Shown: in pieces, positions 24,071 through 48,510 of the stretch
How positions within the stretch are numbered: position 1 is the stretch's first letter
How the letters are laid out: each line of letters starts with the position of its first letter
Source of the DNA: Mustelus asterias
Taxonomy: Eukaryota
Assembly (NCBI RefSeq): GCF_964213995.1
Contig: NW_027591086.1
Location: 62,001-112,314, forward strand
DNA length: 50,314 nucleotides
Direction of reading: 5' to 3'
The notes under the pieces: model-generated
Database searches by the model: none
Seen by the model: the letters and a program-made list of their open reading frames with translations, nothing else
What the model was told of the DNA's origin: nothing
Translations under genes and position numbers: made by a program

Positions 24071-24161
24071 TGAGTCCGTGAAATATTTCCTGGTGCAGAG
24101 TTGAGTGACGACTTATCCCCGGTACACTTACAGCACTAACTATTAATTATGTTGAGTCATG

Positions 24162-25022: not shown

Positions 25023-25030
25023 TTCGCAGC

Positions 25031-25135: not shown

Positions 25136-25191
25136 CTAGAGGCAGCAACTTATTGTAAACATTGTCGCTGCTTACTGTCCTATCAGGAACC

Positions 25192-25629: not shown

Positions 25630-25668
25630 CACACTGTTACAGAGACACAGTCAGCCCGTACAAAAACT
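25630..25668 (+). other. 23-RSS of V2
   Basis: cacactg + 23 nt + acaaaaact. Confidence 0.93.
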
Positions 25669-26039
25669 GGCAAAGGCACTCTCACCTCCTCTCACTGAAT
25701 CAGATCTGTGAGCTGGATTGTAAACTGTTAATATAAACAAACAATATTATAAAGAAGAGTTAGCCCGAATGCTCTCTTTCCATGGTGCTGAATGTGCCAT
25801 TCTATATAAATTCCATTTTTATAGCCCTTTGGAGCAACTCTTCCAATGGAAAACTCTGCCGCTGTTGTCACAACGTTAACCAAGATCCATCTGCGTCTTA
25901 TCTCAAAGGTTAACTCCGGAAAATGACCAATATTCGTTTCCATGCCCTCACTTTGTCAAAGAGCGACATCACCATTCGGTCGTTCCGCTTCTTCGAGTCC
26001 AGTTCATTGTCTGAGAACAGATTCTAATGGTTCCGGCTC

Positions 26040-26275
26040 CTCGCTCTGACGTCATGCATTGGAGAACAAAGACTCTCTGAGCTGATTGGATGAAATGTAG
26101 GACAGAGAAGCTGTGAGCTGATTGGGTGCCTCCTGCTGGCTCTTTGTCAGGAATGAACCAATCGCCAGTGAGGCCGGATATTACTCACCATCTTCTGAAC
26201 TCTGAACTAAAACAGTTTGAACTCACTGAGTTCAGATCCAGCACCAGCTCGGCGAGACTGCTGTCTGTTAGTTTT
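26040..26275 (+). promoter_or_regulatory. Orphan V promoter (V6-like architecture)
   Basis: tgacgtca ~26047, several attgg/ccaat boxes; tgaaccaatcgccagtgaggccggatattactc resembles tgaaccaatccacaggggcccggatgtgactc in front of V6. Confidence 0.55.
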
Positions 26276-26276
26276 T

Positions 26277-27813
26277 ACAGTAAGAAGTTTAACAACACCA
26301 GGTTAAAGTCCAACAGGTTTATTTGGTCGCAAAGGCCACACAAGCTTTCGGAGCTCCAAGCCCCTTCTTCAGGTGAGTGGGAATTCTGTTCACAAACAGA
26401 GCTTATAAAGACACAAACTCAATTTACATGAATAATGGTTGGAATGCGAATACTTACAGCCAATCAAGTCTTTAAGATACAAACAATGTGAGTGGAGAGA
26501 GCATCAAGACAGGCTAAAGAGATGTGTATTGTCTCCAGACAGGACAGCCACCATGGACTACTCTCCGGAATCGGTTGCATTCTTGGACACATGCATCTCA
26601 ATTAAGGACAGTCACCTCGGCACTTCACTGTACCGCAAGCCCACGGATAACCTCACGATGCTCCACTTCTCCAGCTTCCACCCTAAACATGTTAAAGAAG
26701 CCATCCCCTACGGACAAGCCCTCCGAATACACAGGATCTGCTCGGATGAGGAGGATCGCAATAGACACCTACAGATGCTGAAAGACACCCTCCATAGGAA
26801 CAAGATATAGCGCTCGACTCATCGATCGACAGTTCCGGCGCGCCACAGCGAAAAACCGCACCGGCCTCCTCAGAAAACAAACACGGGACACGGCGGACAG
26901 AGTACCCTTCGTCGCCAAGTACTTCCCCGGAGCAGAGAAGCTACGACGTCTTCTCCGGAGCCTTCAACATGTCGTCAATGAAGACGAACATCTCACCAAG
27001 GCCATCCCCACACCCCACCTCTTGCCTTCAAACAACCGCACAACTTCAAACAGACCATTGTCCGCAGCAAACTACCCAGCCTTCAGGAGAACAGTGACCA
27101 CGACACCACACAACCCTGCCATAGCAACCTCTGCAAGATGTGCCGGATCATCGACACGGATGCCATCATCTCACGTGAGAACAGCATCCACCAGGTACAC
27201 GGTACATATTCTTGTGACTCGACCAACATTATCTACTTGATACGCTGCAGGAAAGGATGTCCCGAGGCATGGTACATTGGGGAAACCATGCAGACGCTAC
27301 GACAACAGATGAATGAACACCGCTCAACAATCAGCAGACAGGAGTGTTCTCTTCCTGTTGGGAACACTTCAGCAGTCACGGGCATTCAGCCTCTGATCTT
27401 TGGGTAAGCGTTCTCCATGGCGTCCTTCACGACATACGACAACGCAGAATCGCTGAGCAAAACTGATAGCCAAGCTCCGCACACATGAGGAAGGCCTCAA
27501 CCGGGATCTTGGGTTCATGTCACACTATCTGTAACCCCTACGACTTGCCTGGGCTTGAAAAATCTCACTAACTGTCTTGGCTGGAGACAATACACATCTC
27601 TTTAACCTGTGTTTAACCCCCTCTCCACTCACGTTATCTGTACATTTAAGACTTGATTACCTGTAAAGGCTCGCAATCCAACCATTATCGTTTTAATTGA
27701 GTTTGTGTCTGTATATGCCCTGTTTGTGAACACAGCTCCTCACTCACCTGGAGAAGGAGCGACACTCCGAAAGCTTGTGCTACCAAATAAACCCTGTTGG
27801 ACTTTAAACTGGC
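26277..27813 (+). mobile_element. Penelope-like retroelement (Neptune-type): inverted pLTR 26277-26547, truncated RT thumb + GIY-YIG endonuclease, 3' pLTR ~27560-27813; frameshifted
   Basis: VAFLDTCISIK..LYRKPTD..HPKHVKEAIPYGQALRIHRICS; Cys-rich linker PCHSNLCKMC; NIIYLIRC..WYIGETMQTLRQQMNEH (GIY-YIG); the terminal repeats are inverted. Confidence 0.9.
26336..26376 (-). ncRNA. Minimal type I hammerhead ribozyme motif in a Penelope pLTR
   Basis: Minus strand cac-CTGAAGA-a-ggggc(ttgga)gctcc-GAAA-gc-TT-gtg. Confidence 0.55.
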
Positions 27814-27841
27814 GTTCAGATCCAGCATCAGCTCTGTGAAC

Positions 27842-27899
27842 ATATTAAATGTTACCTTTGCAGAAATCGTCACAGCTGCAGAGCACTTAACTGGCAAGT
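27842..27899 (+). pseudogene. Decayed V leader exon (V6/V9 family)
   Basis: ctctgtgaac ATA tta aat gtt acc..gtc aca gct gca gag cac tta act g|gcaagt aligns to V6 ctctgcaaac ATG tct cct gtt act..ctc aca gcg gca gct ctg tta acc g|gtaatt; start codon lost. Confidence 0.55.
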
Positions 27900-28109
27900 T
27901 CCGAAATTGAATAAGTTTCACTTTGCTTGCGATACGGATTTGGAAATCACCCGTTTATCTGTTTTTCCACTGCTTGCAAACAATTCCGTTAACTTGATAA
28001 CATTGACAATTTTTAATAGATGCAGAAAATTGAGTCCCCACTCCCTCTGGTCTGGTCTGAAAACATCGCCATATTTAGGGATGTGGATCAAGAATGTGGG
28101 GGCTTTTTC

Positions 28110-28830
28110 CTGATCCTGACAGTGCAGCTGTAATCAATATGAATTAGCTGTGGTCGAATTGCTGAAATCATTCATTACCGAATCTCCTTCAAACGTTGTC
28201 ATAAAACGGTTCCTGTGAGATGGCATATGCATCAATAACACCTACAATTAATTAGAAATATGGTTTCAAGGCTTCATTCTATGATCATCTTGCTGGTGCC
28301 AGTACAGAGCGAGACTGCGGATAGTTGGGAACCTGTCTCGGGGGCAGGGAATTCAGATGGTGTTCGTAAAGCAGAAGTGGAAATGAATAGGGTTGGGAAG
28401 CATTTCCCGATCAGGGCCAGTGTGATCTCCTGGACTCGTTTCGATCGCCACAGGGGGTCGGAGAGGAATTTCCCAGATTTTCTTTTCCCCATATTGGCCC
28501 TGGGGTTTTCACTCTGGGTTTTCGCCTCTCCCTGGAGATCACATGGTCTGGAATGGGGGGGTGGGGGTGAGTTAATAGGTTGTGATGAACAAAGCATCGT
28601 AGCTGTGAGGGACAGCTCGGTGGGTAGGATATTAGGATGTAGATAGGCTGGAAAATTGGGCGGGGATCCTGGATTCAGGATTCAATCCTGGACCGGGAAG
28701 CGGCGCGGGCTTGGAGGGCCGAAGGGCCTGTTCCTGTGCTGTACTGTTCTTTGTTCTTTGTTAGTGCCGAGTTCCCAGTGACCCCCAATTAAAGAAAAGC
28801 CAATTCTTCCCTCGTCCAGCGAATCTAAGA
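28110..28830 (-). pseudogene. Possible highly decayed V relic interrupted by a CR1 fragment (28365-28760)
   Basis: Minus strand gives ALYWHQQ, RFMTTF and ISAIRPQ..DYSCTVR in V-like order, with stops and frameshifts; no RSS. Confidence 0.3.
28365..28762 (+). mobile_element. CR1-family LINE 3' end
   Basis: Ends ggcttggagggccgaagggcctgttcctgtgctgtactgttctttgttctttg. Confidence 0.65.
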
Positions 28831-30599: not shown

Positions 30600-30853
30600 C
30601 TCAGTTTGACGTGAGCCTGACATCGAACTTCTCTGTTCGGGGCTGCTGGGATCATTCTTGTGGATACATTCTCCAGACGCTCTCCTTTGCTGAGGGCTGA
30701 AAAAATGTTTCCAAACGTACAAGGCAAGATCTCTGCTGATTTCCACAAAGGAAACAAAACGGTCCCTTGAAATATCATGGGAGATGTTTTCTCTCACACC
30801 GCATTTCTGTGCCACACAGCCAGCAGAGAAGTAGCAGATTCGGGACAAAAATC
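30600..30853 (+). pseudogene. V pseudogene (V2/V5 family) with decayed 23-RSS
   Basis: atctctgctgatttccacaaaggaaacaaaacggtccctTGAaatatc aligns to V5 FSAALHKGNNTVPLNI with a stop; tttctgtgcc remnant; cacagcc (30815) + 23 nt + acaaaaatc (30845-30853); 5' boundary approximate. Confidence 0.75.
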
Positions 30854-31648
30854 CCACACTGGGGGTTCCAGACACCGCTCTCATTGCTAAACAAAATCAA
30901 AAACTCCGCCTCCAAAGTCTGAGTCACCGGCAGTCTCAAAACAAAAACAACGTCAGGAATTGTATTAACTCCAGCGTACAGTTATACTGAGAGCGACCTT
31001 CATAAATCTATTTCATTACTCCAATGTACTTTTTTCCTTTCGATGTGTTTTCCATGACTCTAACATTGAACAACCCTCTCTCCATATCCCCTCCCAGTTT
31101 CCTGGAGCCTTTGACTGCGGCATGTTCACACAGTTTATTTAAACCCAGTGCCCACTGAGCTTCAGAATGTTTTCTGGAGGCTGGTGTGGTTCCTGTCAGC
31201 ACTAACGATCCAAATGTTTCTGATGATTATCTACAGACCAGGATTACATTCCTCGACCACCTCTTCCTCCTCCCCCTGGCTCTGAAAGTGCGGCCATACC
31301 CCTATGACGGCACTGACTGTAGCTGGGCTCAGACGATTTTCTTTCCAAGTCAGCACGAAATTACCACCAACTGGTCTCCCAGAACCAGAGACACACACGG
31401 AAGTGGGGCGAGAGCATCCCCAGGGTAGAGAACAAATTACAAAAGGCAGGGATTAGAACAGGTATCTTCCAATATGACTGTGCTGATTTGTTTGTCGAAT
31501 TGAAATCGGCAGTTTGTTTGTGCAGTTGCTCCTGGGAACAGTTTCACGAAAGGTTGGTTTGGTTTCCTTTCGCTGCACATTATGGCGATATCTACCGCGA
31601 TTTTACACAAACTACAACAGACAGGAGCTGCATTCTACAGTGATGGGC

Positions 31649-34044: not shown

Positions 34045-34587
34045 ATGTGCTCCTTACTTTGGTTGCTGATAATAATGGTCTTGCTGCCCGGTGAGTCAAT
34101 AAACTCTGACAAAGTGTCATCCTGACTTGAAACATTATCTCTGTTCGCCTCTCACAGATGTTGTCAGATCTACTGAAAATTTCGAGCATTTTCCTTTTTT
34201 GAGTCAATGTTTAAATGATCAGTGTCTGTCCCATGGGCTCTCTTCCCTCCCAGATATTGAACACCTTCTGTGTTTTGTTACAGGGGCAAAGGCTGAAGAT
34301 TCAGTGTTTCAAGATCGATCTGAATTATCGGTTCTGGAAGGACAGAACATAACACTGGACTGTAAATACTCAACAGCTGCTTCTGAAACTATGTTCTGGT
34401 ACATCCAGTATCCCGGGCAAGCTCTGAGACATTTGATGAAGATATATAGCTCGGGCAATACCGATAAGTCTCCGGATTTCTCAGATAGATTCTCGGCTGC
34501 TTTACACAAAGGAAACAATACTGTTCCTTTAAATATCGCCAGAGCTGTTCTGTCCGACAGCGCCGTGTATTTCTGTGCCATGGAGCC
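34045..34587 (+). CDS. TRAV/DV: TCR alpha/delta V segment V5 (leader 34045-34090, V exon 34284-34587), open
   Basis: MCSLLWLLIIMVLLP-g|gtgagt; ttacag| GAKAEDSVFQ..LDCKYST..MFWYIQYPGQALRHLM..DSAVYFCAME + RSS. Confidence 0.93.
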
Positions 34588-34625
34588 CACACTGGTACAG
34601 ATGTAGCGAACCCCGCACAAAAACC
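34588..34625 (+). other. RSS of V5 (22-nt spacer)
   Basis: cacactg + 22 nt + acaaaaacc. Confidence 0.9.
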
Positions 34626-34647
34626 CCAGACTGGGAGTTCCGGTTAG

Positions 34648-34666
34648 TGATCAGCAGAGGGCGCTC
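34648..34666 (+). promoter_or_regulatory. RSS-proximal CTCF motif with upstream (U) module
   Basis: gggagttcc-ggttag-tgatcagcagagggcgctc, starting 22 nt after the nonamer. Confidence 0.65.
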
Positions 34667-35559
34667 CGACACTGATAAACAGAAATAATTATTTTGTCTC
34701 GACAGTGATAGTCACAGGGTCATAAACAAAATATCAAAACAAAACAACACGAACGGCTGAGCCACAGTTGAATTTTTAACTTGCAACTATACTAAAAATA
34801 CATTTACAGTTCCTTAACTCACGCTTCAACCTTTGATGACATTTTCTTGCCTGTGTGAATTATTGTGCAGCAGTTTCCCCATCTTCACTCTCCTTTTCAA
34901 GGTCTCTTTGATCAAAGGGTCTATTTGATCAGAGTATTTTGCTGCCTAAAGGACAGCTTGTATTGGCATATACATTTCGCAAGATTGTCATTGTGCTATT
35001 TAAAACAATCACTGAGAACAAGTTGCCATCAATGTTCATTCTCATTTTGAATGTCTGTCAAATGTTTTCTGACACAATTCGCAACCCAGTGTTTCTCTGT
35101 TACAATAATCAGACCAGCGACTTCATTCCCACCCCTGGCCCTAACAATATAGCGATTTTCCTCACAAGCACACTGAGAACCTCTCCAATCCAGCTACTCA
35201 GCTATTCGGTCCCACTTTCCATCTCCATCACTGATGAAGATTCCGCTTTGTATTGGATCATTTACTAACCCTGACCTTCCTGGTGCGAGACTGCTGGTCC
35301 GCGCTATGGAATGAACATTCAGCTGCCGCTCCTACAGACAGGCAAATTTATATGATTTCCAATGCGATAGTGTTATTGAGTTCAATTCCTTGCAGATAAA
35401 TTCTACCTCTCACCACACTGCCTATGGCAGCCACACCCACAGCTTTCCTGTGTTGTTCTCACTCTGACCTGCCTCATCTGTGTTGTTTTATTAGAGATTT
35501 TATTGTAGATATTGACCTTTGCTGCTTTTCCCTGTTTGGCACCGATTGGATCAGCAGTC

Positions 35560-35955
35560 CAATGGGGTGGCAAGCTATACTTTCTCTCTGAAAGAGGATT
35601 TCACACGCGGCAAAGTTACAAATTGAGGGAAGATCGTATGGAAATATCACAGACTATTCATTATTCTATCACTTCTTGTGAAGTACATGTTTCAACTAAA
35701 AATTCATCCTCCCCCGCACCGTAGCTGCTATCCCAAACATGATTGATAACAAACTGCTTGACATGTTGCTGTAGGGATGAACATTGTCATTCTCCATGTC
35801 AGAACAGACCCATCAACACTCAGGGGACCGGTCGGTTCATGGAATAACTGTTGAAGAGGAAAATAATCCCCTGTCGTGGGATGGCCAACTTCACTTTGTT
35901 CCTTCCGTCTCTCCGCCTATGGGGTGAATTGGAGATAAAGGAGCTGTGAGGTCAT
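35560..35955 (-). pseudogene. Ancient V relic head-to-head with V6 (paralogous copies at 44220-44580 minus and 45690-46085 plus)
   Basis: The 45690 copy has a leader-like MTSQLLYLQFILLAE, an acceptor tcatttcag|ga and DMENDNIHPHSNIT (FR1-like); the 44.2-kb copy reads LSDMVIY at the expected 3' position. Confidence 0.4.
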
Positions 35956-36130
35956 TGGTTGAACTGCAGAACAAAGGAGCTTGAAGCCGATTGGATGTCA
36001 TCTGATGACGTTTCCAGCAGTGAACCAATCCACAGGGGCCCGGATGTGACTCCGCCTCTTTCAACTCTTGACTGAAACAATGACATCTCCCACCCGCTCT
36101 GGTCAGATCCGCCCCGAGCTCTCTGCAAAC

Positions 36131-37015
36131 ATGTCTCCTGTTACTCGGTATTTATTCCTCACAGCGGCAGCTCTGTTAACCGGTAATTTCACAAGTTGCT
36201 CAAGTCTGTGTTACACATCATTACCATACACTATATTCTGTCAGGCAGTTCCTTCAATGCGAGGGGGAGGGGGTCGGTGATGAGGGAACGGATTGATCTC
36301 AACATCGAAAAGTTATCTGGATTTCGCTGGTCTCATCACTGAACACTGTTGGGATTGGGCACATTTCCCCCAGGGATTGATAGAGAATGAGTTGGTCTCA
36401 GATTCCAGCTCCTCTGATACCAGTGAACCACTTTGGCAAACATCACACTTCAAACTGACCGTGAGCAGTTTCCAGTTACAGGGACTGAAGTCGAGGAACT
36501 GATCCCGTTAGAAAGAGCAGAATGTTTATGGTGGAAGTTTTATTTAATCGCCACAAAAACTTCCCAATCCAGCCACTGAACTGTGAGAAATATGTTTCTG
36601 TTTTACTCTCTGATTTCTCTCTCAGATTATTTTTGCCGATAACGGGCGAATTCTGGGGGAAACGGAGTGAAGTCACAATGTTTAATTTAATATTTCTTTG
36701 GATTCTTCCAGGACATTCCCGAGGAGATTCTGTTTCACAGACAGCGGCTGCAGTCACCGTCACTGAAGGAGATGATGTTCGGTTGCTCTGTAATTACACA
36801 ACTACAAACAACAGCCCTTATCTATTCTGGTACCGTCAGTATCGCAGTGGATCCATGGAATATCTGCTGAAGACAAATAAATACACCGGGGACACAGGGA
36901 GATCCAAAGGGGACCGTATTTCAGCGGAACTCGATGATACAACCCGCACGGTCCGGCTGAAAGTGTCTAAAACAGAGTTGGCAGACTCCGGGGTTTATTA
37001 CTGCGCACTGAGACC
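36131..37015 (+). CDS. TRAV/DV: TCR alpha/delta V segment V6 (leader 36131-36182, V exon 36712-37015), open
   Basis: MSPVTRYLFLTAAALLT-g|gtaatt; ttccag| GHSRGDSVSQ..LLCNYTT..LFWYRQYRSGSMEYLL..DSGVYYCALR + RSS. Confidence 0.93.
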
Positions 37016-37054
37016 CACAGAGACACAGAGCTGGGCTGAACCTGTACAAAAACT
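37016..37054 (+). other. 23-RSS of V6
   Basis: cacagag + 23 nt + acaaaaact. Confidence 0.93.
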
Positions 37055-37234
37055 GCCAGAGCCTCGCTCAACATAACAGAGCATTAGGAAAACATTATGA
37101 TCAGAGTGAGTCTGATGTGGAACCTGAAATCGTGCTGGTATCTCAAACTTTTAATTCCTATATATATATATATGTATTATTTATAAATATATTACCAAAC
37201 TAAAACAATGAGGGCAACTTAGAGAATGAACATT

Positions 37235-37530
37235 TGACTATTTGTACAGTTTGATGTCCCAAAGTGTTTCCCTGTCACTGTGGAAAACACAGCAGCCAAT
37301 TTGGACTCAGTGTGACATTTCATTCAGCAATATTGTAGTGTTCTGTCTGTTTCAGGAATTGTGATTGGTGAACAGAAATCAAACAGGACATTTCTCTGCT
37401 CTTCTTGGAAACAGTGACCATGTGATGTGTCACCTCCAGCTGAGAGGGAACACGGTGCCCCCGATTGAACAGGTCACCGAGAGGCTGGCCGCTCTGACGG
37501 TGCAGCGTTCCCTGAGCACTGCACTGTCTC
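37235..37530 (-). mobile_element. DeuSINE (SacSINE1/AmnSINE-like) remnant
   Basis: ctgctcttcttggaaacagtgaccatg..ctgagaggg..ctctgacggtgcagcgttccctgagcactgcactg resembles the reverse Deu domain. Confidence 0.55.
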
Positions 37531-38074
37531 CTCGGTAAGTTCCCGGATTCTTATTCCTGCCAGACTGCCTGTGTCCTCTGGAGCGGAAAGAATATCTGAA
37601 CCGACTGGAGACAGAATCCGGGAAATCCTAGGAGGTGGTGACCACTCATTAACCCAATCCGGGAAAGAAACGGATTTAAATTTTAAAAATGAAATTAAAA
37701 GTAAACTTTTCTGGCCCGTGGAAATATGAAGACAATGAATTTAATCTCCAGAAAGAAATTTCAGACGAAAACAGAAAGAAAGATTTTTATTGATGCCTTT
37801 TACAGACTTCCGATGTCCGAAAGCGCTTTCTAACCCAAGGAAGCTCATTTCCAGTGTCGCGCTGTGGTGATGTTAGAAACTTTATTAACACAGAAAACAG
37901 TGGGAATGTTTAATTCTCTGTCAGACAGGGTTGCCACGCTGATCCTGGAGTAAAGAGATTGCGGAGTCCAGGTATTTGAAAGTTACTTTGAACTCTCTCA
38001 CACACAGGGACACACGCACACACTCTCCCTCTGTCTCTCGATGCAAAATCTCTGTCAGAGAGTGTGGCAAAACC

Positions 38075-38392
38075 TGTGCAAAATCTCACTAGCTGTCCTG
38101 TCTGGAGACAATACACATCTGTTTAACCTGTGCTTAATGCTCCCTCCACTCACATTGTCTGTACCTTTAAGACTTGATTAGCTGTAAAGACTCACATTCC
38201 AATCATTATTCATGTAAATTGAGTTTGTGTCTTTGTGCCCTGTTTGTGATCAGAACTCCCACCCACCTGACGAAGGGGCAGCGCTCCGAAAGCTCGTGGT
38301 TTTTGCTACCAAATAAACCTGTTGGACTTTAACCTGGTGTTGTTAGACTTCTTACTTTGTTTACCCCAGTCCAACGCCGGCATCTCCACATC
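38075..38392 (+). mobile_element. Solo Penelope-like pLTR
   Basis: Homologous to 27550-27813 and 1241-1464. Confidence 0.85.
38262..38299 (+). ncRNA. Minimal type I hammerhead ribozyme motif (intact core)
   Basis: ccac-CTGACGA-a-ggggc(agc)gctcc-GAAA-gc-TC-gtgg; stem I ccac/gtgg. Confidence 0.6.
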
Positions 38393-39955
38393 TTGTCTAG
38401 GTCACCAGAGGAACAGATTGCGAAATGATGAGACATATCTTTATGGCGCAATGCATGCAGTTAACCTCCAAATCTACTTCAGAGCAGCGGTAATGAAAGC
38501 TCCCAGATGTAGAGATCGTGTAGCCAAAAATTACTGTTATATCATCTTCCAGGGCCGTCAACTGAGATTGCGCCAGCAATTCCTAGAACCAAACATTGGA
38601 TGTGTCAAAGTCTGCTGTAGTTATGAATACTTGGATTGCTCAATAATAATTTCAACACAGACTCACCTCGTTAAAAAGGCTGTATTATCCGACAGTACCA
38701 CGCACCACTTCCTGAATCAGTCGCTAATCAGCCATGCTAAACTCTCCCTCAGTGTACCCGAACAGGCGCCGGAGTGTGGCGACGAGGGGATTTCCACAGT
38801 AACTTCACTGCAGTGTTAATATAAGCTTATTTGCTACACTAATGAATAGACTGAAGCACTGAACTTCTGATCTAACCAATGACAGAAATCGACCAGCGGC
38901 AGCACTGTCTAGAAAAGCACAATGGTGTTGGAATGAATAGCAGCAACCGGAAGCTGTGACCGGGGACACCGCAGACTCAAAGCTGATGGAAGTGCGGGGT
39001 TCTCAGCGGCAGTCGCAGGTGATGGAGAGGAAACAGCGACAGCTGAAACCTGCAGCAGTCTGTGACAACCTGCATCTGCTCACTGCTCAAGTGACTGAGA
39101 AAAAATAGTGTCGGGCGGGCGCGAATGGATCAGAAACAATTGACTCTCCCTGTGGCTCAATGAAAGACCTTTCCCAATTGCTCTTCTCACCCCCCATTCC
39201 ACGAGTTGTTTTCCGTTCTCAAGGTCTGACAATGCCTTTTTGAAATTTACTATTGAATGCTCTTCCCTTATAGTTTGCGGCGCTCTTCTCCAGATGGTAA
39301 CAAATAGCAATGCAATGAATAACATTTATCGATCCCTGTCCACTTTTCTGTGAAAATGGGATGACTTGGTCGTTTATTTATCGAACAGGTGCATTGCTGC
39401 CTTTGTTCGTTCAAATGAACAGCGAACCGGTCTGAGAAACCTTGGGACCTATCTCAATGTCTGGCCCTCTACCACTTCATTAAATATCCCATAACTTACC
39501 CGGAATACTGCTCTGTCCAGATAGGTACAGAAAGCTTTCAGATATGGAGTGACTGTCCCTTAGCACTCCTGACTGGTCTTCCAGAGCTTTCAACTCCGAT
39601 GGAGTCTGGGAAACTCAATGTCTGTCACTCGTCCCTGCAGCCGAACTTAGAATGTGTCACAGACTGGAATGGGATTTATCACAGGAAATAGACAAGGATC
39701 CTTTTAATATTGACTCACGGAATACCACGATTATTCCAATTTGGAAGCACCATGGAACATGCGCTGCCCGGATGACATTTCCACAGAAAATAACCCAATT
39801 TAAATGTATTTTATCCGTTCTTTTTTGATTTTAAAGAGTAAACCCAAATCGGCAACAGGTCTCACTGATCGGGTGACTGTGGCGCGTATCCAAGGGAGAG
39901 AGTGATTAAAAGTCCAGCTCTCTGCACAGGCTCCACTTTCTGGATGATCGCGGCA

Positions 39956-39994
39956 GGTTTTTGTACGGCCCTGTACGGTCTTTGCTACACTGTG
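39956..39994 (-). other. Perfect-consensus 23-RSS of V7
   Basis: Minus: cacagtg + 23 nt + acaaaaacc. Confidence 0.96.
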
Positions 39995-40497
39995 CCTCCA
40001 TCGCACAGAAATAGGTGGCGGTGTCTGTCAGCCGAGCTTCACTAACATTCAGAACGCTGTGGTTCTCTGAGAAACTGTACCGAGCCGTGATCCTGCCCTG
40101 ATCGCTGGTACCGCTCACCAGGTGCTGCACGGTTCTGTCTGGATTTTGTCTGTACCAATGAAGGACCTGTCCAGTTACTGTGGCTGAACAGTTCAACGAT
40201 GCAGTGGCTCCCTCGGTAACAACCACTGACTCCGGAGACTGTGATAGCTCTTCACTGCCAGCGGCATCTGGGAAGAATATGTACATTTGCAGTAATAACA
40301 TATCGTACTATAATGTAGCACAATAAAGTACCATTGTATTCACAATTCGAGATGATACAATAAAGCTGAGTACAATTTAACAGAACATAACATTGCTGAG
40401 GTGTGAAATATTGCTGTCAGAAATAGTGACCACACTTACACTGAGGGAACAGTAAGAAATCCAGGAAAATAATCACCAAAGTGAAGCTCAGGAACAT
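39995..40497 (-). CDS. TRAV: TCR alpha V segment V7 (leader 40497-40440, V exon 40267-39995), open, very short CDR2
   Basis: MFLSFTLVIIFLDFLLFPQ-t|gtaagt; ttcccag| YAAGSEELSQSPES..LNCSATVTGQVLHWYRQNPDRTVQHLVSGTSDQGRITA..DTATYFCAME. Confidence 0.92.
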
Positions 40498-40697
40498 GTT
40501 GGATCCTATCGGCTTGTGTGAAACAGCTGTCAGCAGATCCTAGGCTGAGAGAAGCTCCTGGGAAAGCAATGCTATTGGATATCAAACCGAGCCCCAAACC
40601 AGTCACAGAGTGGCGGTGAGAGCCGGGTCGCTGGGACTTGTGATCACAAAGTGAATCAGTGAGGGAGCTTCAGCATTGATAGTGCGGGGGAGGAGAG

Positions 40698-41220
40698 TGC
40701 GCATGCGGCAGAGCATCCGGTATTGTGACGTCAGAACATCCGGCATTCTGACGTCAGAACATCCGGCATTCTGACGTCAGAGCATCCGCGGCATTGGAAC
40801 CTCATAGAATCATAGAATGCCGACAGTGCAGAAGGAGACCATTCGGCCCATTGAACCCGCACCGACCACAGCCCCACCCAGACCCTCTCCCCGTAACCTC
40901 ACATCTTTACCCCGCGAATCCCCCTGACAGGAGGGGGCAATTCAACATGGCCAGTCAACGTAAAGCACACAGCTTTGACTGTAGGAGGTAACCGGATCAC
41001 CCGGAGGAAACCCGCGCAGACACGGGGAGAACATCCAAACTCCAGACAGACAGTGACCCGAGGCTGGAATCGAACCGGGGGCGCTGTGAGGCAGCTGTGC
41101 TAACCACTGTGGCACCGTGACGCCCAACGTCAGACGTCAGAATGCGGAATGTGTGGCGTCAGAATGTGTGACGTCACCCTATAGCCCATGTGACGTCACT
41201 ATGTAGTGCGAGTGACGTCA
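40698..41220. promoter_or_regulatory. CRE array (6 perfect TGACGTCA) between divergent V7 and V8, split by a SINE
   Basis: tgacgtca at 40726, 40749, 40772 (23-bp period) and 41169, 41191, 41213 (22-bp period); NRF1-like tgcgcatgcg at ~40698. Confidence 0.75.
40803..41125 (-). mobile_element. HE1-like V-SINE
   Basis: catagaatcatagaat..acagtgcagaaggagaccattcggccc ... gctgtgaggcagctgtgctaaccactgtggcaccgtg. Confidence 0.9.
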
Positions 41221-41398
41221 GTGGGTCTGGATTGTGGGTCAGAGACATCTCTCCCGGAGCTGATCTGAATATTCAGCCCTGAGTTGATGGGAATTAACAG
41301 CTGATCTGAAACATCTCTCCCGGAGCTGATGTGAATATCCAGCTGTGAGGTTGCGGAATTAAGATCTAATCAGAAGCAGGGAGGTGCTGCCTTCATGT

Positions 41399-41471
41399 CG
41401 GTTAGTCGCTCAGTGCAGAACGCGTCTGATTATGGATCAGAAGATTTCAAGTTCGATTTCTGGCTGGCTCG
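41399..41471 (+). pseudogene. tRNA-Arg(ACG) pseudogene (anticodon now ATG)
   Basis: aacgcgtctgattatggatcagaagatttcaagttcgatttctggctggctcg is colinear with vertebrate tRNA-Arg-ACG; acceptor stem and A box are degraded. Confidence 0.8.
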
Positions 41472-41511
41472 ATGTAAACTTGACGGTAGTTCAAGCTCTC
41501 TGTTGTGGACA

Positions 41512-41579
41512 GTTTCTGTAATTGTCATCACATTCGCTTCACACGCGAAAGGTCCCCGGTTCGAAACCGGGCAGATACA
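41512..41579 (+). pseudogene. tRNA-Val(CAC) pseudogene
   Basis: atcacattcgcttCACacgcgaaaggtccccggttcgaaaccgggcagataca matches vertebrate tRNA-Val-CAC; ~5-nt deletion in the D-arm/A box; B box intact. Confidence 0.82.
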
Positions 41580-41644
41580 TTATTAAACTTTCTCAGTTAG
41601 GTTGCGGGAAGTCTGCATGATTTCAATTTTTTATGGGCCAAATG

Positions 41645-41836
41645 GTGGCACAATGATTATCACTGATGCCTCACAGCGCCAGGGACCCGGGTTCAATTCC
41701 GGCATTGGCTCACTGTCTGTGTGGAGTGTGCATGTTCTCCCCGTGTCTGCGTGGGTTTACTCTGAGTGCTCCGGTTTCCTCCCACAGTCCAAAGATGTGC
41801 GGGCTGGGTGGATTTGCCATGATAAATTGCCTCTTA
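41645..41836 (+). mobile_element. V-SINE, 3'-truncated
   Basis: gcctcacagcgccagggacccgggttcaattcc..ttctccccgtgtctgcgtgggtt. Confidence 0.85.
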
Positions 41837-42331
41837 GAGATAGACAGTGAGACAACCAAAGGGGCGCAGTGAGAAAAACAATGTCCGAAATGGAATCAGG
41901 AATTCAACAGGGAGAAATAAAAATAACATAATATAATGCAGTCCATGGATAGGCCGAATGGCCTCATTCGATGCTCACCGATTCAATGATTGTCGATGCT
42001 TCATGTCCCAGCCATAAACATTTAATTTTAGACACTTGAACAGTGAGCAGGTGCAGGATGATCAGAGACTTCTGTAGATTCAAGCGTCGCTATTTCCGCT
42101 CCCACAGCATCCAGTGCAGCTGAGAGTCACGGCAAACCCCACTCAATATTGAGCCTGTGGTAACCCTGCCCACAGCTTCCGTTTGCTGCTCTCACTCCGA
42201 CCCGATTGGACAGATTGCTGCCACTGCTCCATTCCTCTCATTGGATCAGGAGTGCAGTGGGACGGGGATCTTTACTTCTGTTTCTGACTGAGGATTTCTC
42301 TCACTACAGAGTTACAGACTCAGGAAGGATC

Positions 42332-42836
42332 ATGGGGATCCAGCTCTTTCCGATCCTCATCATTATCTCACTTCTCAGTAAGTATTTCCTTCCCAATAAA
42401 ACTCCATTCTGCTCCTGACTGCTGTAACCCAGATGTTATTGTTATTAAAACAACAGTGACGATGTTGATGATAATTGCATCGTTTAATCTGAGGCTGACT
42501 CTAATTGTCATTATTGCTGTTACTTCCGTTAGAATGGAGCCAGCAAGACAAAGTGGAACAACAGGATTCTGAAATATCGGTTAAAGAGGAAAGTAATGTC
42601 ACACTGACCTGCTCCTTGGAAACAAGCGATTCCAGCCCTAATGTGTACTGGTACAGTCAGCAGCCCGGGAAAGCTCCAGTGGACATGTTTCAGCTTGTTG
42701 GAGAGAATGTGCAAAGGAATACCGACCTCAATGATCGGTTTTCTTCTATATTTGATAAAAAGAACAAGACTAGCGAGCTGACGATCAGTAACACACTGAT
42801 CTCTGACAGCGCCGTTTATTTCTGTGCTATGAAGCC
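42332..42836 (+). CDS. TRAV/DV: TCR alpha/delta V segment V8 (leader 42332-42377, V exon 42533-42836), open
   Basis: MGIQLFPILIIISLL-a|gtaagt; gttag| KWSQQDKVEQ..LTCSLETSDSSPNVYWYSQQPGKAP..DSAVYFCAMK + RSS. Confidence 0.93.
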
Positions 42837-42876
42837 CACACTGCTGCAGAGATATAGCGAATCCCGTACAAAAACC
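42837..42876 (+). other. RSS of V8 (24-nt spacer)
   Basis: cacactg + 24 nt + acaaaaacc. Confidence 0.9.
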
Positions 42877-43077
42877 CCACACAGGCAGTTCCAGTCAGTG
42901 CCCAGTAGGGTGCGCGCGCACACACGCGGGTAATTCAGTTTCCACAGAGAGAGTGACAGGAAGATTGTTCACATTGCAGCAAAACACAACACTCAAAAAC
43001 AGAAACTGGTGTGGTTCAGTTGCACATTTACATTTGCTAATGATCGTAACTTACATTTGCAATTGAAATAAGATTGA

Positions 43078-43620
43078 CATAGAACATAGAACAGTACAGC
43101 ACAGAACAGTCCCTTCGGCCCACGATGTTGTGCCGAGCTTTATCTGAAACCAAGATCAAGCTATCCCACTCCCTATCATCCTGGTGTGCTCCATGTGCCT
43201 ATCCAATAACCGCTTAAATGTTCTTAAAGTGTCTGACTCCACTATCACTGCAGGCAGTCCATTCCACACCCCAACCACTCTCTGCGTAAAGAACCTACCT
43301 CTGATATCCTTCCTATATCTCCCACCACGAACCCTATAGTTATGCCCCCTTGTAATAGCTCCATCCACCCGAGGAAATAGTCTTTGAACGTTCACTCTAT
43401 CTATCCCCTTCATCATTTTATAAACCTCTATTAAGTCTCCCCTCAGCCTCCTCCGCTCCAGAGAGAACAGCCCTAGCTCCCTCAACCTTTCCTCATAAGA
43501 CCCACCCTCCAAACCAGGCAGCATCCTGGTAAATCTCCTCTGCACTCTTTCCAGCGCTTCCATATCCTTCTTATAGTGAGGTGACCAGAACTGCACACAA
43601 TATTCCAAATGTGGTCTCAT
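43078..43620 (-). mobile_element. Young 5'-truncated CR1-family LINE
   Basis: Uninterrupted ORF RPHLEYCVQFWSPHYKKDMEALERVQRRFTRM...FKRLLDRHM; tail (ttctatg)n; absent from the paralogous arm at ~46770. Confidence 0.92.
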
Positions 43621-44601
43621 TTGACAGATCGTTTGACAGATCGATTTGACAGATCGATTTGACAGATCGATATGAGATACATTGACACATTTTTTTTGGC
43701 TTTCGATACCTTTCCCAGCCTATTTATTCCAAACACGTTCTTGTATTTACTGATTTATGGGAGTTGTGCACATTTCACTTTTCTAGTCTTTAACGTAAGA
43801 ATTTAAAGCTTTTTCTGACACCTTGTACATCCATTCGGAACCTCCCCAATTCGTCTGCTCAGCGATTCAGTCCCACTTTCCATCCTCCTCACTGATGAAG
43901 ATTTCGCTTTGTATTGAATCATTTACTAACCCTGGCACTCCTAGTGCGAGGCTGCTCGGACGCAGTATGGAATGGACATTCAGCTGCCGCTCTTACAGAG
44001 AAGCAAATTTATAGAATTTCTAATGAGACATTGTTATTGAGATGAAATCCTTACAGATAAATCCTAGCTGTCACTTCACTGCGTGTGGTCGCCCCACGCA
44101 CAGCTTTCCTGTGCTGTTCTCACTCTGACCCGTCTCACCTCTGCTGTTTTATTAGAGATTTTATTGGGGATATTGATCTTTGCCGCTTTTCCCTGTTTGG
44201 CACTGATTGGATCAGTAGTTGAATGGGGAGGTAAGATATATCACCATGTCTGAAAGAGGATTTCACAGACTACAAATTAAAAAGTGAGGGAACATCAAAT
44301 GGAAATATATCAGACCATTCATTATTCCATCACCTCTTATGAAGTAGATGTTTCAACTCAACATTCATCCTCCCCCGCATCATAGCTGCTACCCCAAACA
44401 TGATTGATAACAAACTGCTTGTTATGTTGCTGTAAGAATGAATATTGTCGTTCTCCATGTCGAAACAGAGCCACCAAGACTCAGGGGACCGGTCGTTGTC
44501 TGAAATGACGGCTGAAGAGGAAAGTAATCCCCTGTAGTGGGATGACCAAATTCACTTTGTTGCTTTCGTCTCTCCGCCAAGAGGATGAGTGAGGCTCTGA
44601 C

Positions 44602-44640
44602 AGTTTTTGTACAGGTTCAGCCCAGCTCTGTGTCTCTGTG
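44602..44640 (-). other. 23-RSS of V9
   Basis: Minus: cacagag + 23 nt + acaaaaact, identical to the V6 RSS. Confidence 0.93.
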
Positions 44641-45515
44641 GGTCTCAGTGCGCAGTAATACACCCCGGAGTCTGCCAGCTCTGTTTTAGACACATTCAGA
44701 GGGACTGTGCGGGTTGAATCATTGAGTTCTACTGAAAAACGGTCCCCTTTGGATCTCCCTGTGTTTCCGGAGTATTTATTTGTCTGCAGGAGATACACCA
44801 TGGATCCGCTGGTATACTGACGGTACCAGAAAAGATCAAAGCTGTTGCTTGTAGTTGTGTAATTACAGAGCAACCGAACATCATCTCCTTCAGTGACAGT
44901 GACTGCAGCCGCTGTCTGTGAAACAGAATCTCCTCGGGAATGTCCTGTAAGAATCCAAAGAAATATTAAATTAAACATTGCAATTTCACTCAGTTTTCCC
45001 AGAATTTGCCCGTTATCGGCAAAAATAATCTCAGAGAGAAATCAGAGAGCAAAACAGAAACATATTTTTCACAGTTCAGTGACTGGATTGGGAAGACGTT
45101 TGTGGCGATTAAATAAAACTTCCACCATAAACATTCTCTTCTTTCTAACGAGATCAGTTCCTCGTCTTCAGTCCCTGTAACTGGAAACTGCTCACGGTCT
45201 GTTTGAAATGTGATGTTTGCCAAAGTGATTCACTGGTATCAGAGGAGCTGGAATCTGAGCCCAACTCATTCTCTATCAATCCCTGGGGGAAATGTGCCCA
45301 ATCCCAACAGTGTTCAGTGTTGAGACCAGAGAGATCGAAATAACTTTTCGATGTTGTGATCAATCCATTCCCTGATCAACACCCTTGCATTGAGCAAACA
45401 GCCCGACAGAATATAGTGTGTGGTAATGGTGTGTAACACAGAGTGAGCAACTTGTGAACTTACCGATTAACAGAGCTGCCGCTGTGAGGAATAAATACAA
45501 AGTAACAAGACACAT
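44641..45515 (-). CDS. TRAV/DV: TCR alpha/delta V segment V9, paralogue of V6 (leader 45515-45464, V exon 44944-44641), open
   Basis: MCLVTLYLFLTAAALLI-g|gtaagt; ttacag| GHSRGDSVSQ..LLCNYTTTSNSFDLFWYRQ..DSGVYYCALR. Confidence 0.93.
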
Positions 45516-46421
45516 GATTGCAGAGCTCGCGGTGAATTTGACCAGAACGGGTTGAACCTGAATTTGTGTCAGTCAAGAGTTGGGAAAAGGGTGAGTCATA
45601 TCCGGCTCCCTGTTGATTGGTTTACTGTTGAAAACGTCATCAGATGACATCCAATCGGATTCAATCTCCTATGTTCTTCAGTTCAACCAATGACCTCACA
45701 GCTCCTTTATCTGCAATTCATCCTATTGGCGGAGGGACGAAAGGAACAAAGTAAAGTTGATCATCCCACGACAGGGGATTACTTTCCCCTTCAACCGTCA
45801 TTTCAGGAACCGACCGGTCCCCTGAGTCCTGATGGCTCTGTTCTGACATGGAGAATGACAATATCCATCCTCACAGCAACATAACAAGCAGTTTGTTATT
45901 AATCATGTTTGGGATATCAGCTATAGCGCGGGGGAGGATGATTTTTTAGTCAAAACATCTACCTGATAAGAAGTGACAGAACAATGAATGGTCTGAGATA
46001 TTTCCATATGATGTTCTCTCAATTTGTAATTTTGCAGTCTGTCAAATCCTCTTTCAGAGTGGAAATATAGCTTGCCTCCCCATTGGACTGCTGATCCAAT
46101 CAGTGCCAAACAGGGAAAAGCAACAAAGATCAATATCTCCAATGAAATATCCAAGAAAACAGCAAAGGAGAGACGGGTCAGAGTGCGAACAACACAGGAA
46201 AACTGTGGGTGGGGCTACCATAGGCAGTGTGGTGACCGCTAGGATTTATCTGCAAGGAGCTCAACTCAATAACAATGTCAAATTGGAAATTCTGTAACTT
46301 TGCCTCTCTATATGAGAGGCAGCTGAATGTCCATTCCATACTGCGGACCAGCATTCTTGCACCAGGAGTATCGGATTAGTAAGTGATTCAGTACAAAGTG
46401 AAATCCTCATCAGTGATGTTT

Positions 46422-46722
46422 GGACCTGGGTTCGATTCCCGGCTTGGGTCACTGTCTGTGTAGAGTTTGCACATTCTCCTCGTGTCTGCGTGGGTTTCCT
46501 CTGGGTGCTCCGGTTTCCTCCCACAGTCCAAAGATGTGCGGGTTAGGTTGATTGGCCATGCTAAAATTGCCCCTTAGTGTCCTGGGATGTGTAGATTAGA
46601 GGGATTAGCGGGTAAAATATGTAGGAATCTGGGGGTAGGGCCTGGGTGGGATTGTGGTCGGTGCAGACTAGATGGGCCGAATGGCCTCTTTCTGTATTGT
46701 ACGGTTTCTATGATTTCTATGA
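46422..46722 (+). mobile_element. HE1-like V-SINE with CR1-derived tail
   Basis: ggacctgggttcgattcccggcttgggtcactgtctgtg ... gatgggccgaatggcctctttctgtattgtacggtttctatgatttctatg. Confidence 0.9.
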
Positions 46723-46956
46723 GAAAGGCATCGAAAACGAAAAAAAAAAGGTGTTGCAGTATCTCAGATCGATATTGCAAATGTAAGTTCCGACCATTAA
46801 CTAATGTAATTGCAACTGGACCACACCAGTTGCTGTTTTTGAGTGTTGTCTTTTGTTGCAATGTTAAGAATCTCTGTCACTCTCTCTGTGGAAACTGAAT
46901 TACCCGCGTGTGTGCGCGCGCACCCTGCTGGGCACTAACTGGAACTGCCAGTGTGG

Positions 46957-46996
46957 GGTTTTTGCACGGCAATCGCTATATCTCTGCAGCAGTGTG
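46957..46996 (-). other. RSS of V10 (24-nt spacer)
   Basis: Minus: cacactg + 24 nt + gcaaaaacc. Confidence 0.9.
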
Positions 46997-47494
46997 GGCT
47001 CCATGGCACAGAAGTACACGGCGCTGTCAGAGATCAGTGTGTTACTGATCGTCAGCTCGCTAGTCTTGTTCTTTTTATCAAATTTGGAAGAAAACCGATC
47101 ATTGAGGTCGGGATTCTTTTGCACAATCTCTCCAATAAGCTGAAACATGTACACTGGAGCTTTCCCGGGCTGCTGACTGTACCAGTACACATAAGGGCTG
47201 GAATCGCTTGTTTTCAAAGTGCAGGTTAGTGTGACATCATTTTCCTCTTTAACCTTTATTACAGGATCCAATTGTTCCACTTCGTCTTGGTGACTCCATT
47301 CTAACAGAAACAACAGCAATATGACAATCAGAGTTAGCGTCAGATTAAACGATACAATTATCATCATCACTATTGTTTTATCAACAAGAATATCTGGGTT
47401 ACAGCAGTCAGGAGGAGCTTGTAGTTTTACTGGGAAGAAAATACTTACTGAGAAGTGAGAGAATGATGAGGATCGGAGTGAGATAGTTCACCAT
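46997..47494 (-). CDS. TRAV/DV: TCR alpha/delta V segment V10, paralogue of V8 (leader 47494-47449, V exon 47300-46997), open
   Basis: MVNYLTPILIILSLL-a|gtaagt; gttag| KWSHQDEVEQ..LTCTLKTSDSSPYVYWYSQQPGKAP..DSAVYFCAME. Confidence 0.93.
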
Positions 47495-48510
47495 GATGCT
47501 TCCTGAGTCTGTAACTCTGCAATGAGTGAAATCCTGTCAGAGACAGAAAGACACTGTTCCACTGCACTGCTGATCCAACCAATGAGAGGAATGGAGCAGC
47601 GGCAGCAATCCGTCCAATCACACAACAGGTTCAGAGTGAGAGCAGAAAACGGAAGTCGCGGGCGGGGATGCAGTAGACAAAATATTGAGTGAAGTGTGCG
47701 GCAGATTCAGCTGCACCCGGAACGGAAATAGCGAGACTTCCATCTCCGGAATCTGTCACCATTCTGCACCTGCTCACTGTCCAAGTGACTGAGAAGAAAT
47801 AGAGAGGGAGGAGCATAACGGGGCCAGGGACATGAACAAAATAGAAACATAGCGTATCAATGCAGGAGATGAGGCCACTCGGCCCATGGTATCTTTGCCT
47901 GACAGAATTCAGAATTGACGTGGAGAATTCAGAATTACAGAATTCTTCAATTCAGCTTTCAAACCCCGCATCTCTCACAGTGACTGCACTTTTCTGCTTT
48001 CAACTTATCTCCCATTCCCTTCTGAAACTTACTGTTATCTCTTCTTCCGCCATCTCTTTCGACACCGCAGGGATAGGGCCTAGATAAGAGTCGGTGCAGT
48101 CTTGATGGGCCGAATGGCCTCCTTTTGCACTGTCGGGATCCGATGACCATCTTCCAAGTTTAACAAATCGCAGAGTAATCAATGAATCTCATCTTTCCAT
48201 TGCACTCTCACCTCCTAAAGTAGACGCTTGTCTTTTCCAAAGTTCTGCCGGCGGAAACTGTGACATGCGATTTACTTTAACAAAACCACATGATGTTGAG
48301 CACCTCAGCTCGGTCTCTGTTCTACCTCCTTTGATATTAAGAGATGAACTCCTGTGTCACAGTGGATCGCGTCTGTGCCCCTGAGGCAGAAACATCGGCT
48401 TCAATTCGAAAGCCAGTACCTGATAGCTGAGGGTATTTATTGGAGCCTCAGCCATTACTATCCACAACTCCAGACAATAACATGGAAAAAAAGTGAACAG
48501 AGAACATAAG

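What the first reader, a model, noticed from the sequence alone, without database searches (positions are those of the whole stretch)
34588..46996. CTCF motif fixed 22 bp behind the RSS in a shark TCR V lineage
Seen: V5 (tgatcagcagagggcgctc), V8 (tgcccagtagggtgcgcgc) and V10 (tgcccagcagggtgcgcgc) each have a CTCF-like core starting 22 nt after the nonamer, preceded by the U-module-like g(c/g)agttcc and a 6-nt gap. These are the same three genes that have off-length spacers (22, 24, 24) and CACACTG heptamers. Established: mouse proximal VH genes have CTCF sites about 20 bp downstream of the RSS that boost usage by impeding loop extrusion, whereas mammalian TRAV sites are mostly promoter-side. 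Inference: an Igh-like RSS-CBE mechanism in a cartilaginous-fish TCR locus, possibly compensating for weak RSSs. This is my best candidate for an undescribed system here. The three sites share ancestry, and the V8/V10 cores have a G>T mismatch.
Basis: partly seen in the sequence, partly recalled or inferred. Interest (0 to 1): 0.72.

Follow-up and report, generated by a model that had tools for sequence, protein, structure and literature searches.

The report
CTCF site behind shark TCR signals
A large group of shark T-cell-receptor gene segments carries a preserved sequence match for the genome-folding protein CTCF just behind its DNA-cutting signal, which likely anchors chromosome loops that bring these segments to their joining partners, as in mammalian antibody genes; binding itself is untested.

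Summary
V5, V8 and V10 carry CTCF cores (19.5, 13.3 and 14.0 bits, recalled matrix) 22 nt behind the nonamer. The cassette occurs at least 101 times in this genome; none of the 21 other V families counted has it. Across 32 paralogous lineages the core evolves like a CTCF site: informative positions change least (rho -0.69) and its CpG survives in 31 of 32. Contigs of four other organisms cover it, and a horn-shark gene model reads through a compatible cassette. V5 and V8 belong to different V families (41% aa): the RSS+CTCF cassette likely moved between them. It differs from Igh in spacing (23 versus 17-19 nt), mixed orientation (19 of 26 contigs) and retention on pseudogenes. A loop anchor with diffusion capture therefore fits better than linear scanning. 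Compensation for weak RSSs is unproven: it rests on one lineage, and sharks use 22-nt spacers routinely. There are no binding or usage data. My paper searches did not find it in print; the scan had noted it before, here and in other genomes.

The parts
34045..34587 (+). V5: TCR alpha/delta V segment (leader from 34045, V exon from 34284), open frame
   Evidence: (Pfam V-set 4.6e-17)
34588..34625 (+). V5 RSS: CACACTG, 22-nt spacer, consensus nonamer
34633..34641 (+). V5 U-module-like 9-mer (6 of 10 match to published upstream 10-mers), then a 6-nt linker
34648..34666 (+). V5 CTCF core, 19.5 bits
42332..42836 (+). V8: TCR alpha/delta V segment of a second family (41% aa to V5), open frame
42837..42876 (+). 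V8 RSS: CACACTG, 24-nt spacer, consensus nonamer
42884..42892 (+). V8 U-module-like 9-mer (7 of 10 by eye against the published 10-mers)
42899..42917 (+). V8 CTCF core, 13.3 bits, G>T at matrix position 13
46997..47494 (-). V10: V8-family segment in inverted orientation, open frame
46957..46996 (-). V10 RSS: CACACTG, 24-nt spacer, nonamer with A>G at its first position
46941..46949 (-). V10 U-module-like 9-mer
46916..46934 (-). V10 CTCF core, 14.0 bits, same G>T
30815..30869 (+). Decayed V5-like fragment: RSS and U-like 9-mer kept, CTCF core missing (natural loss)
25630..25668 (+). V2 RSS (control): V2 is in the sister group of V5 by exon, CACACTG with 23-nt spacer, no motif behind it

Best explanation
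These V segments carry a conserved CTCF-type motif 22 nt behind their recombination signal; CTCF likely binds it and would stall or anchor cohesin loops right at the signal, likely raising its contact with the J-alpha region. Shown: the motif, its spacing, at least 101 copies, a conservation pattern that follows CTCF specificity, mixed orientation, and reverse-facing motifs 30-35 kb behind C-alpha. Inferred: occupancy in thymocytes; looping to those 3' sites or stalling of extrusion anchored at the J-alpha centre; synapsis mainly by short-range diffusion (Trbv1/Igk mode), since inverted copies cannot be captured by one-way RAG scanning. Also inferred: the 3' cassette (last FR3 codons, RSS, motif, flank) likely arose on the V8/L255 side and was captured by the ancestor of the V5 group through a crossover near the second cysteine. 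My odds: true CTCF site about 0.85; RSS-specific boost of recombination about 0.5.
For: Conservation in 32 lineages (32 of 44 groups): core positions 5-17 change 1.0 times per column, versus 2.9 in the RSS spacer and 3.7-3.9 in the flank. Information content against changes gives rho -0.69 (3 of 5000 permutations). Neutral simulation at the spacer rate reached the observed mean score in 0 of 2000 runs. The 14 lineages found by exon-only search or incidentally give rho -0.71 and 1 of 2000. The 11 substitution types seen cost -1.8 bits on average versus -4.4 for all 42 possible (p 0.001). The core CpG is kept in 31 of 32 lineages, six other CpGs in 13-25 of 32. Gap length is 22 in 25 of 32, 23 in 4, 21 in 2, 16 in 1. 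Contigs of organisms B, D, E and F cover the motif. A Heterodontus francisci gene model reads through a compatible cassette: 24-nt spacer, core 21 nt after the nonamer. Four strong reverse motifs lie behind C-alpha on C71. On C546 all 4 copies face the J array, 75-103 kb upstream of it. Precedent: VH RSS-linked sites raise usage (PMC11153149); scrambling the Trbv1 site cut its rearrangement 6-fold (PMC10772921). CTCF motif orientation and TADs are conserved in skate, and core and upstream motifs in lamprey.
Against: No ChIP, ATAC, Hi-C or repertoire data were seen. V clusters are CTCF-rich anyway: 59 motifs in 210 kb, 19 of them RSS-linked by my count, versus 2-3.5 per 100 kb elsewhere (tiles partly chosen on motif hits). 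Adjacency to one ancestral RSS could therefore be an inherited accident. All copies descend from one cassette. None of the 21 other families has such a site, yet many are intact. 21 of the 32 lineages are broken or were not called intact and still keep the core, and private changes in them are no rarer in the core than in the spacer (0.31 versus 0.42 per column). The V8 family has a costly G13T (-7.1 bits). Three groups with an RSS lost the core and the L181 type degraded it; these were left out of the alignment, which inflates retention. At the slower gap rate the neutral test is weaker (6 and 10 of 2000). The linker is as conserved as the U part, which CTCF alone does not predict. The matrix was recalled.
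Confidence: 0.5

Rival explanations
1. The site is bound by CTCF but serves general locus architecture (folding or insulating V clusters that lie among IgH-type and NAR-TCR cassettes). Its place next to the RSS is an ancestral accident carried along by duplication.
For: About two thirds of the strong motifs in V clusters are not RSS-linked and face both ways. The core is kept on pseudogenes, including six with a broken RSS. Gap length tolerates 16-23 nt. There is one cassette origin. Mouse Tcra/d sites are mostly upstream or intergenic (PMC5859386).
Against: The gap stayed 21-23 nt in 31 of 32 lineages and apparently in horn shark. RSS and motif moved together between V families. Teleost TRAV-like gene models show an excess of RSS-proximal CTCF-compatible read-throughs (4 of 50 tails versus 0.08 in shuffles).
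Confidence: 0.3
2. CTCF acts locally, not through loops: it keeps the RSS unmethylated and free of nucleosomes or, with the U module reaching to 7 nt from the nonamer, competes with RAG and damps a strongly amplified family.
For: The core CpG is protected. The U-like 9-mer starts 8 nt after the nonamer. Ciccone et al. speculate about a direct effect on RAG. The effect would not depend on orientation.
Against: The core CpG is retained but the CpGs of the RSS spacer decay. In mouse the tested effects run through contacts with the recombination centre.
Confidence: 0.1
3. CTCF does not bind. The stretch is a site for another factor or a remnant kept similar by gene conversion among near-identical copies.
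For: Recent amplification and evident cassette exchange. The V8-family core has a mismatch at a 1.8-bit position. The linker is conserved and resembles a Myb-type site (consensus recalled, not tested).
Against: Conversion would not spare exactly the informative CTCF positions or favour changes between CTCF-tolerated letters.
Confidence: 0.1

Closest known systems
RSS-associated CTCF-binding elements of mouse and human IGHV clans II/III (Ciccone 2019 PMC6746451; Bolland 2016 PMC4914699; VH5-2 function as described in PMC11153149)
   Same: CTCF core downstream of a 23-type RSS, on the V strand, at a near-fixed distance, restricted to a lineage, excised on deletional joining; associated RSSs non-consensus.
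   Different: TCR alpha/delta, not IgH. In Ciccone's register the distance is 23 nt versus 17-19 (mouse) or 19/48 (human). Genes and sites face both ways, versus >98% one way. Kept on many pseudogenes. U-like module present. The four shark IgH-type V segments sampled lack it, so no homology to the IGHV sites is shown.
Mouse Trbv1 downstream CBE and the two near-RSS Tcrb sites (Allyn 2024 PMC10772921; Loguercio 2018 PMC5859386 Table 2)
   Same: TCR V segment with a downstream CTCF site that anchors loops to the recombination centre and allows orientation-independent synapsis.
   Different: Single genes in mouse TRB, with all V-side sites facing one way; here about 100 copies in TRA/D. The exact Trbv1 RSS-to-site distance was not in the passages I read.
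Mouse Tcra/d V-region CTCF sites (PMC5859386; review PMC7696796)
   Same: Orthologous locus, dense in CTCF motifs in both orientations, with a CTCF cluster 3' of C-alpha.
   Different: Mouse sites are mostly upstream of promoters or intergenic, not RSS-linked.
Extended CTCF sites with upstream (U) motif bound by ZF9-11 (PMC12885311; lamprey PMC5504073)
   Same: A 9-10-nt element ending in TTCC at a 6-nt linker before the core.
   Different: Only 6-7 of 10 letters typically match (range 5-8); the 5' half varies between subfamilies.

Membership tests
TCR alpha/delta V segment | V-set exon with leader, 23-type RSS, linked to J-alpha array and C-alpha | tested here: met
   family members on C546 and C71 share contigs with J arrays and C-alpha-like exons
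RSS-associated CBE (IGHV clan II/III type) | CTCF core downstream of the nonamer on the V strand | tested here: met
   (recalled matrix)
RSS-associated CBE (IGHV clan II/III type) | Distance 17-19 bp (mouse) or 19/48 bp (human) to the core | tested here: not met
   near-fixed but 23 in that register (25 of 32 lineages; range 17-24)
RSS-associated CBE (IGHV clan II/III type) | Site more conserved than neighbouring DNA | tested here: met
   core 5-17: 1.0 versus spacer 2.9, gap 2.0, flank 3.7-3.9 changes per column
RSS-associated CBE (IGHV clan II/III type) | Restricted to particular V lineages | tested here: met
   3 of 24 families, one cassette
RSS-associated CBE (IGHV clan II/III type) | All sites face the D-J-C end | tested here: not met
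   19 of 26 multi-copy contigs mixed; C71 2 forward, 3 reverse; C546 4 of 4 forward
RSS-associated CBE (IGHV clan II/III type) | Typically absent from non-functional members | tested here: not met
   21 of 32 lineages with the core are broken or not called intact
RSS-associated CBE (IGHV clan II/III type) | Convergent partner sites at the J-C end | tested here: met
   four reverse motifs of 18-22 bits 30-35 kb 3' of C-alpha on C71, sequence only; C546 ends 9 kb after its C-alpha
RSS-associated CBE (IGHV clan II/III type) | CTCF/RAD21 occupancy in rearranging cells | not testable with these tools
   no chromatin data on hand
RSS-associated CBE (IGHV clan II/III type) | Loss of the site lowers use of the adjacent V | not testable with these tools
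   no repertoire data tied to germline copies
Trbv1-type loop anchor with diffusion synapsis | Inverted V segments recombine | tested here: inconclusive
   intact genes in both orientations here (V8, V10); bamboo-shark annotation lists 8 F on + and 12 F on - before TRAJ_001; joins not seen
Extended U+core CTCF site | Upstream 9-10-mer at 5-6 bp linker | tested here: inconclusive
   13 of 15 RSS-linked variants match 6 or more of 10, versus 12 of 57 other cores and about 8% of background; not independent; U columns 2.0 changes each

The most novel reading that the evidence does not exclude
An RSS+CTCF module is an ancient, portable usage booster of fish TCR alpha/delta V genes. It is at least as old as the split from horn sharks, was swapped as a unit onto an unrelated V family whose copies then multiplied, lets off-length 22/24-nt RSSs work in a locus over 10 Mb long with V genes facing both ways, and recurs in teleost TRAV genes. 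RSS-linked CTCF would then be a basic jawed-vertebrate design, not a mammalian IgH speciality.
Probability: 0.3. Interest if true: 0.72.

Novelty: new variant of a known kind. Interest (0 to 1): 0.5.

Why it matters
RSS-linked CTCF sites are the best-tested cis elements that set V usage in mouse Igh, and the papers I read document them only in mammals. A selected site in shark TCR alpha/delta would move the design back to the base of jawed vertebrates or show that it arose twice. It would also place it in a locus where linear RAG scanning cannot serve all copies. The genome supplies natural controls: copies without the core, with a 6-nt shorter gap, with G13T, or with a reversed motif. One thymus repertoire plus CUT&Tag experiment could test the idea.

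Tried and rejected
No RNA holder was listed by the run search, so usage could not be measured. Run X21 (organism G) laid no contig: no evidence either way. The word-index protein search with V5 found nothing; the HMMER search with V8 did. The one pattern hit outside the family (C1, L061) has no V exon and was treated as chance. The shared AGC serine codon of V5 and V8 was considered as a marker of transfer and dropped, because V1 has it too. Retention after pseudogenisation was tested and is inconclusive. An alternative heptamer register 2 nt downstream (22-nt spacer for V8/V10) has only 4 of 7 consensus letters and cannot be tested without joins. The nurse-shark junction file holds no V ends; the Giorgetti files I searched hold no V sequences (12 of 19 files opened, one of them unreadable, plus file 15; files 13, 14 and 16-19 not searched and may hold usage data). 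Jain et al. 2018 is not held and is known to me only through citing papers. The PDB search only confirmed a V domain. The sequence look-up of earlier notes returned nothing.
Full report
1. Observation. The window (G000:C1054:62001-112314) holds about ten TCR alpha/delta-type V segments in both orientations. V5, V8 and V10 have CACACTG heptamers, spacers of 22, 24 and 24 nt and a CTCF-type 19-mer starting 22 nt after the nonamer. With a JASPAR MA0139.1 matrix recalled from memory they score 19.5, 13.3 and 14.0 bits; the six other V exons found by that script score at most 6.2. V2 also has CACACTG but a 23-nt spacer and no motif. A decayed V5-like piece at 30815 keeps the RSS and the U-like part but lacks the core.

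2. Extent in the genome. Two genome-wide patterns (nonamer, gap, core) gave 51 and 51 matches against 0 and 1 for the reversed controls. One match is not at a V gene. The other 101 lie on 42 contigs, some of which may be duplicate haplotypes. In a census of the loci I held (biased towards this lineage), 58 of 113 distinct open-frame V genes carry the motif, in 3 of 24 families (V2 and the TRB-type genes were missed by the regex). Without the motif were all four IgH-type V, the NAR-TCR supporting-type V, three TRG-type families and eight TRB-type V checked separately. Off-length spacers go with the motif: 56 of 58 motif-bearing genes are not 23, and 51 of 55 others are 23. The four exceptions belong to the same clade. 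This is one evolutionary event, not many.

3. Is it under selection as a CTCF site? Exon-only BLAST gave 121 distinct copies in 44 groups. I aligned 32 groups. I dropped three of the V2 type (no cassette), the L181 type (degraded), three whose 3' end is replaced before the RSS, three that keep an RSS but lost the core (30815, L261, L264) and two duplicates. Parsimony changes per column: heptamer 0.7, nonamer 1.7, RSS spacer 2.9, gap 2.0, core positions 5-17 1.0, flank 3.7-3.9 (flank alignment is noisier). The loose matrix positions 1, 2, 3 and 18 changed 5, 5, 7 and 9 times; positions 5, 9, 10 and 16 never changed. Rho between information content and changes is -0.69 (3 of 5000 permutations). 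Neutral simulation reached the observed mean score in 0 of 2000 runs at the spacer rate and 6 of 2000 at the gap rate. For the 14 lineages not found through the motif the figures are rho -0.71, 1 of 2000 and 10 of 2000. Observed substitution types average -1.8 bits against -4.4 for all possible ones (p 0.001), and the core CpG is kept in 31 of 32 lineages against 13-25 for six other CpGs. Against this: the V8 family is fixed for G13T (-7.1 bits), and private changes in the 21 broken or uncertain lineages are not clearly rarer in the core than in the spacer (0.31 versus 0.42). The U-like element matches published 10-mers (PMC12885311) at 6 or more of 10 in 13 of 15 variants, versus 12 of 57 other cores, but its 5' half varies.

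4. Other species. Contigs of organisms A, B, E and F cover the V5 motif. Among the 40 difference rows shown (96 not shown) only matrix positions 1 and 3 fall in the core. On V10, contigs of D, E and F span the stretch, with listed core changes at positions 7, 8, 18 and 19 and none listed at 13; that list omits changes near contig ends. Named relatives of V8 come from Scyliorhinus torazame, Heterodontus francisci and Chiloscyllium punctatum. The horn-shark model P0018 runs past the V end. Its residues fit the same heptamer, a 24-nt spacer, the nonamer, a 21-nt gap and a core (best case 18.4 bits; 33 of 34,651 null peptides reach that), and they share SAEGA and NRNN with the read-through of V5. 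This is inferred from protein and assumes no splice. Four of 50 read-through tails, all teleost, allow cores of 21 bits or more, versus 0.08 in 60 shuffles; this is a lead only.

5. A moved cassette. V5 and V8 share only 41% aa and about half their exon bases, but V5 and V10 share 38 of 40 bases around the exon end and heptamer and 82% from -23 to +96. In the 5' exon tree the V5 group is sister to V2/L143 (no motif) and the V8 group goes with L255 and L181. Holding the motif-bearing genes together is rejected (p-AU 2e-55). In the 3' cassette tree they form one clade (99/98) that also includes L261. The flank beyond the core is homologous between V5 and V8/V10 (z 5.6-5.8) but not between V5 and V2 or L143 (z 0.6, 1.6). 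A crossover near the second cysteine is the simplest reading. The donor is likely the V8/L255/L181 side, since three sublineages there and the horn-shark gene carry or retain traces of the cassette; direction is not proven.

6. Locus geometry. J-alpha arrays with C-alpha-like exons lie on C71 and C546. On C546 all four motif-bearing genes face the J array from 75-103 kb. Genome-wide, 19 of 26 multi-copy contigs are mixed, and C71 has two forward and three reverse pattern hits. V8 and V10 are themselves opposed. Four strong reverse motifs lie 30-35 kb behind C-alpha on C71. V-cluster tiles hold 28 motifs per 100 kb versus 1.9 (J tiles), 3.5 (other tiles) and 2.9 expected; about two thirds are not RSS-linked. 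The bamboo-shark annotation also lists functional TRAV on both strands (PMC10322711 supplement 15, part 1).

7. Mechanism. Most likely (0.5): CTCF bound at the site stalls or anchors cohesin next to the RSS and raises its contact with the J-alpha centre, with capture largely by diffusion. Occupancy, looping and the effect on usage are all inferred. Rivals: general architecture with accidental adjacency (0.3), a local chromatin or RAG-competition effect (0.1), no CTCF binding (0.1). Compensation for weak RSSs is possible but unproven. [quoted passage not shown]

8. Known systems and novelty. It works like the IGHV RSS-associated element and the Trbv1 downstream element. It fails three membership features of the IGHV kind (distance, single orientation, absence from pseudogenes), so I file it as a new variant of a known kind. 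Searches pairing CTCF with shark, cartilaginous fish, teleost or TRAV and RSS listed no paper reporting it; the library lacks most subscription journals. The scan noted the same or similar elements before, in this genome (e1-9558544, e1-9552764) and in others. Those notes gave me PMC4914699 and the bony-fish lead, and are not counted as support.

9. Papers seen. PMC6746451: parts 1-2 of 8, section 17, passages. PMC10772921: passages and section 7. Passages only: PMC5859386, PMC7696796, PMC4914699, PMC11153149, PMC10115646, PMC5504073, PMC12885311, PMC7337519, PMC8692893, PMC2212390. PMC5931798: passages and part 1 of one supplement. PMC10322711: passages, supplement searches and part 1 of file 15; six files were not searched and one was unreadable. 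Jain 2018: not seen. Recalled, from no call: the matrix, the Myb consensus and the labels TRG-type, TRB-type, IgH-type and NAR-TCR supporting-type, which I assigned by eye from translations and cluster layout.

10. Verdict. A real and selected CTCF-type element, older and wider than the three genes, with a likely cassette transfer and natural controls. The function is plausible but untested. Interest 0.5.

Noticed in passing
G000:C71 about 18,419,460 (L108) and G000:C546 about 240,220 (L311): Two different C-alpha-like exons (71 of 100 aa identical), each behind its own large J array: likely two TCR-alpha J-C clusters rather than alleles.
   Followed up: partly
L261 and L264, behind the RSS: Members of the L255 subfamily whose forward core is replaced by other DNA that holds a reverse-facing 17.3-bit CTCF motif 27 nt after the nonamer; L261 has an open frame.
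   Followed up: partly
G000:C71 18,449,143-18,454,581 (L314, L315): Cluster of CTCF motifs 3' of C-alpha, five reverse and two forward, resembling the mouse E-alpha/3' CBE region.
   Followed up: partly
window 19981-28445, 40924, 49400: Further CTCF motifs not linked to an RSS (up to 25.4 bits at 19981); those at 21445 and 49400 sit in related repeat-like DNA.
   Followed up: no
P0009, P0131, P0145, P0146: Teleost V gene models (Danionella, Xiphophorus, Scortum, Platichthys) read through peptides compatible with CTCF cores about 15-47 nt after the nonamer, if unspliced: 4 of 50 tails versus 0.08 in shuffles.
   Followed up: partly
window 34640-34647 and homologues: The linker between U part and core is unexpectedly conserved (1.5 changes per column) and resembles a Myb-type site (consensus recalled); it survives in the L181 type, whose core is degraded.
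   Followed up: no
G000:C71 5-19.4 Mb: TCR V clusters are interspersed with IgH-type V-D-D-J clusters and NAR-TCR-like cassettes over more than 10 Mb, some V segments lying 3' of C-alpha.
   Followed up: partly
L319, L320, L321: Tandem 23-RSS copies at a 61-nt period behind NAR-TCR supporting-type V segments; noted earlier by the scan.
   Followed up: no
window 31699-31650 (-): V segment with open frame but heptamer CAGATTG, likely unable to recombine.
   Followed up: no
window 42500-47500 versus G000:C1957: C1957 holds copies of V8 (100%) and V10 scoring like the window's own, so some contigs may be duplicate haplotypes and copy counts may be inflated.
   Followed up: no
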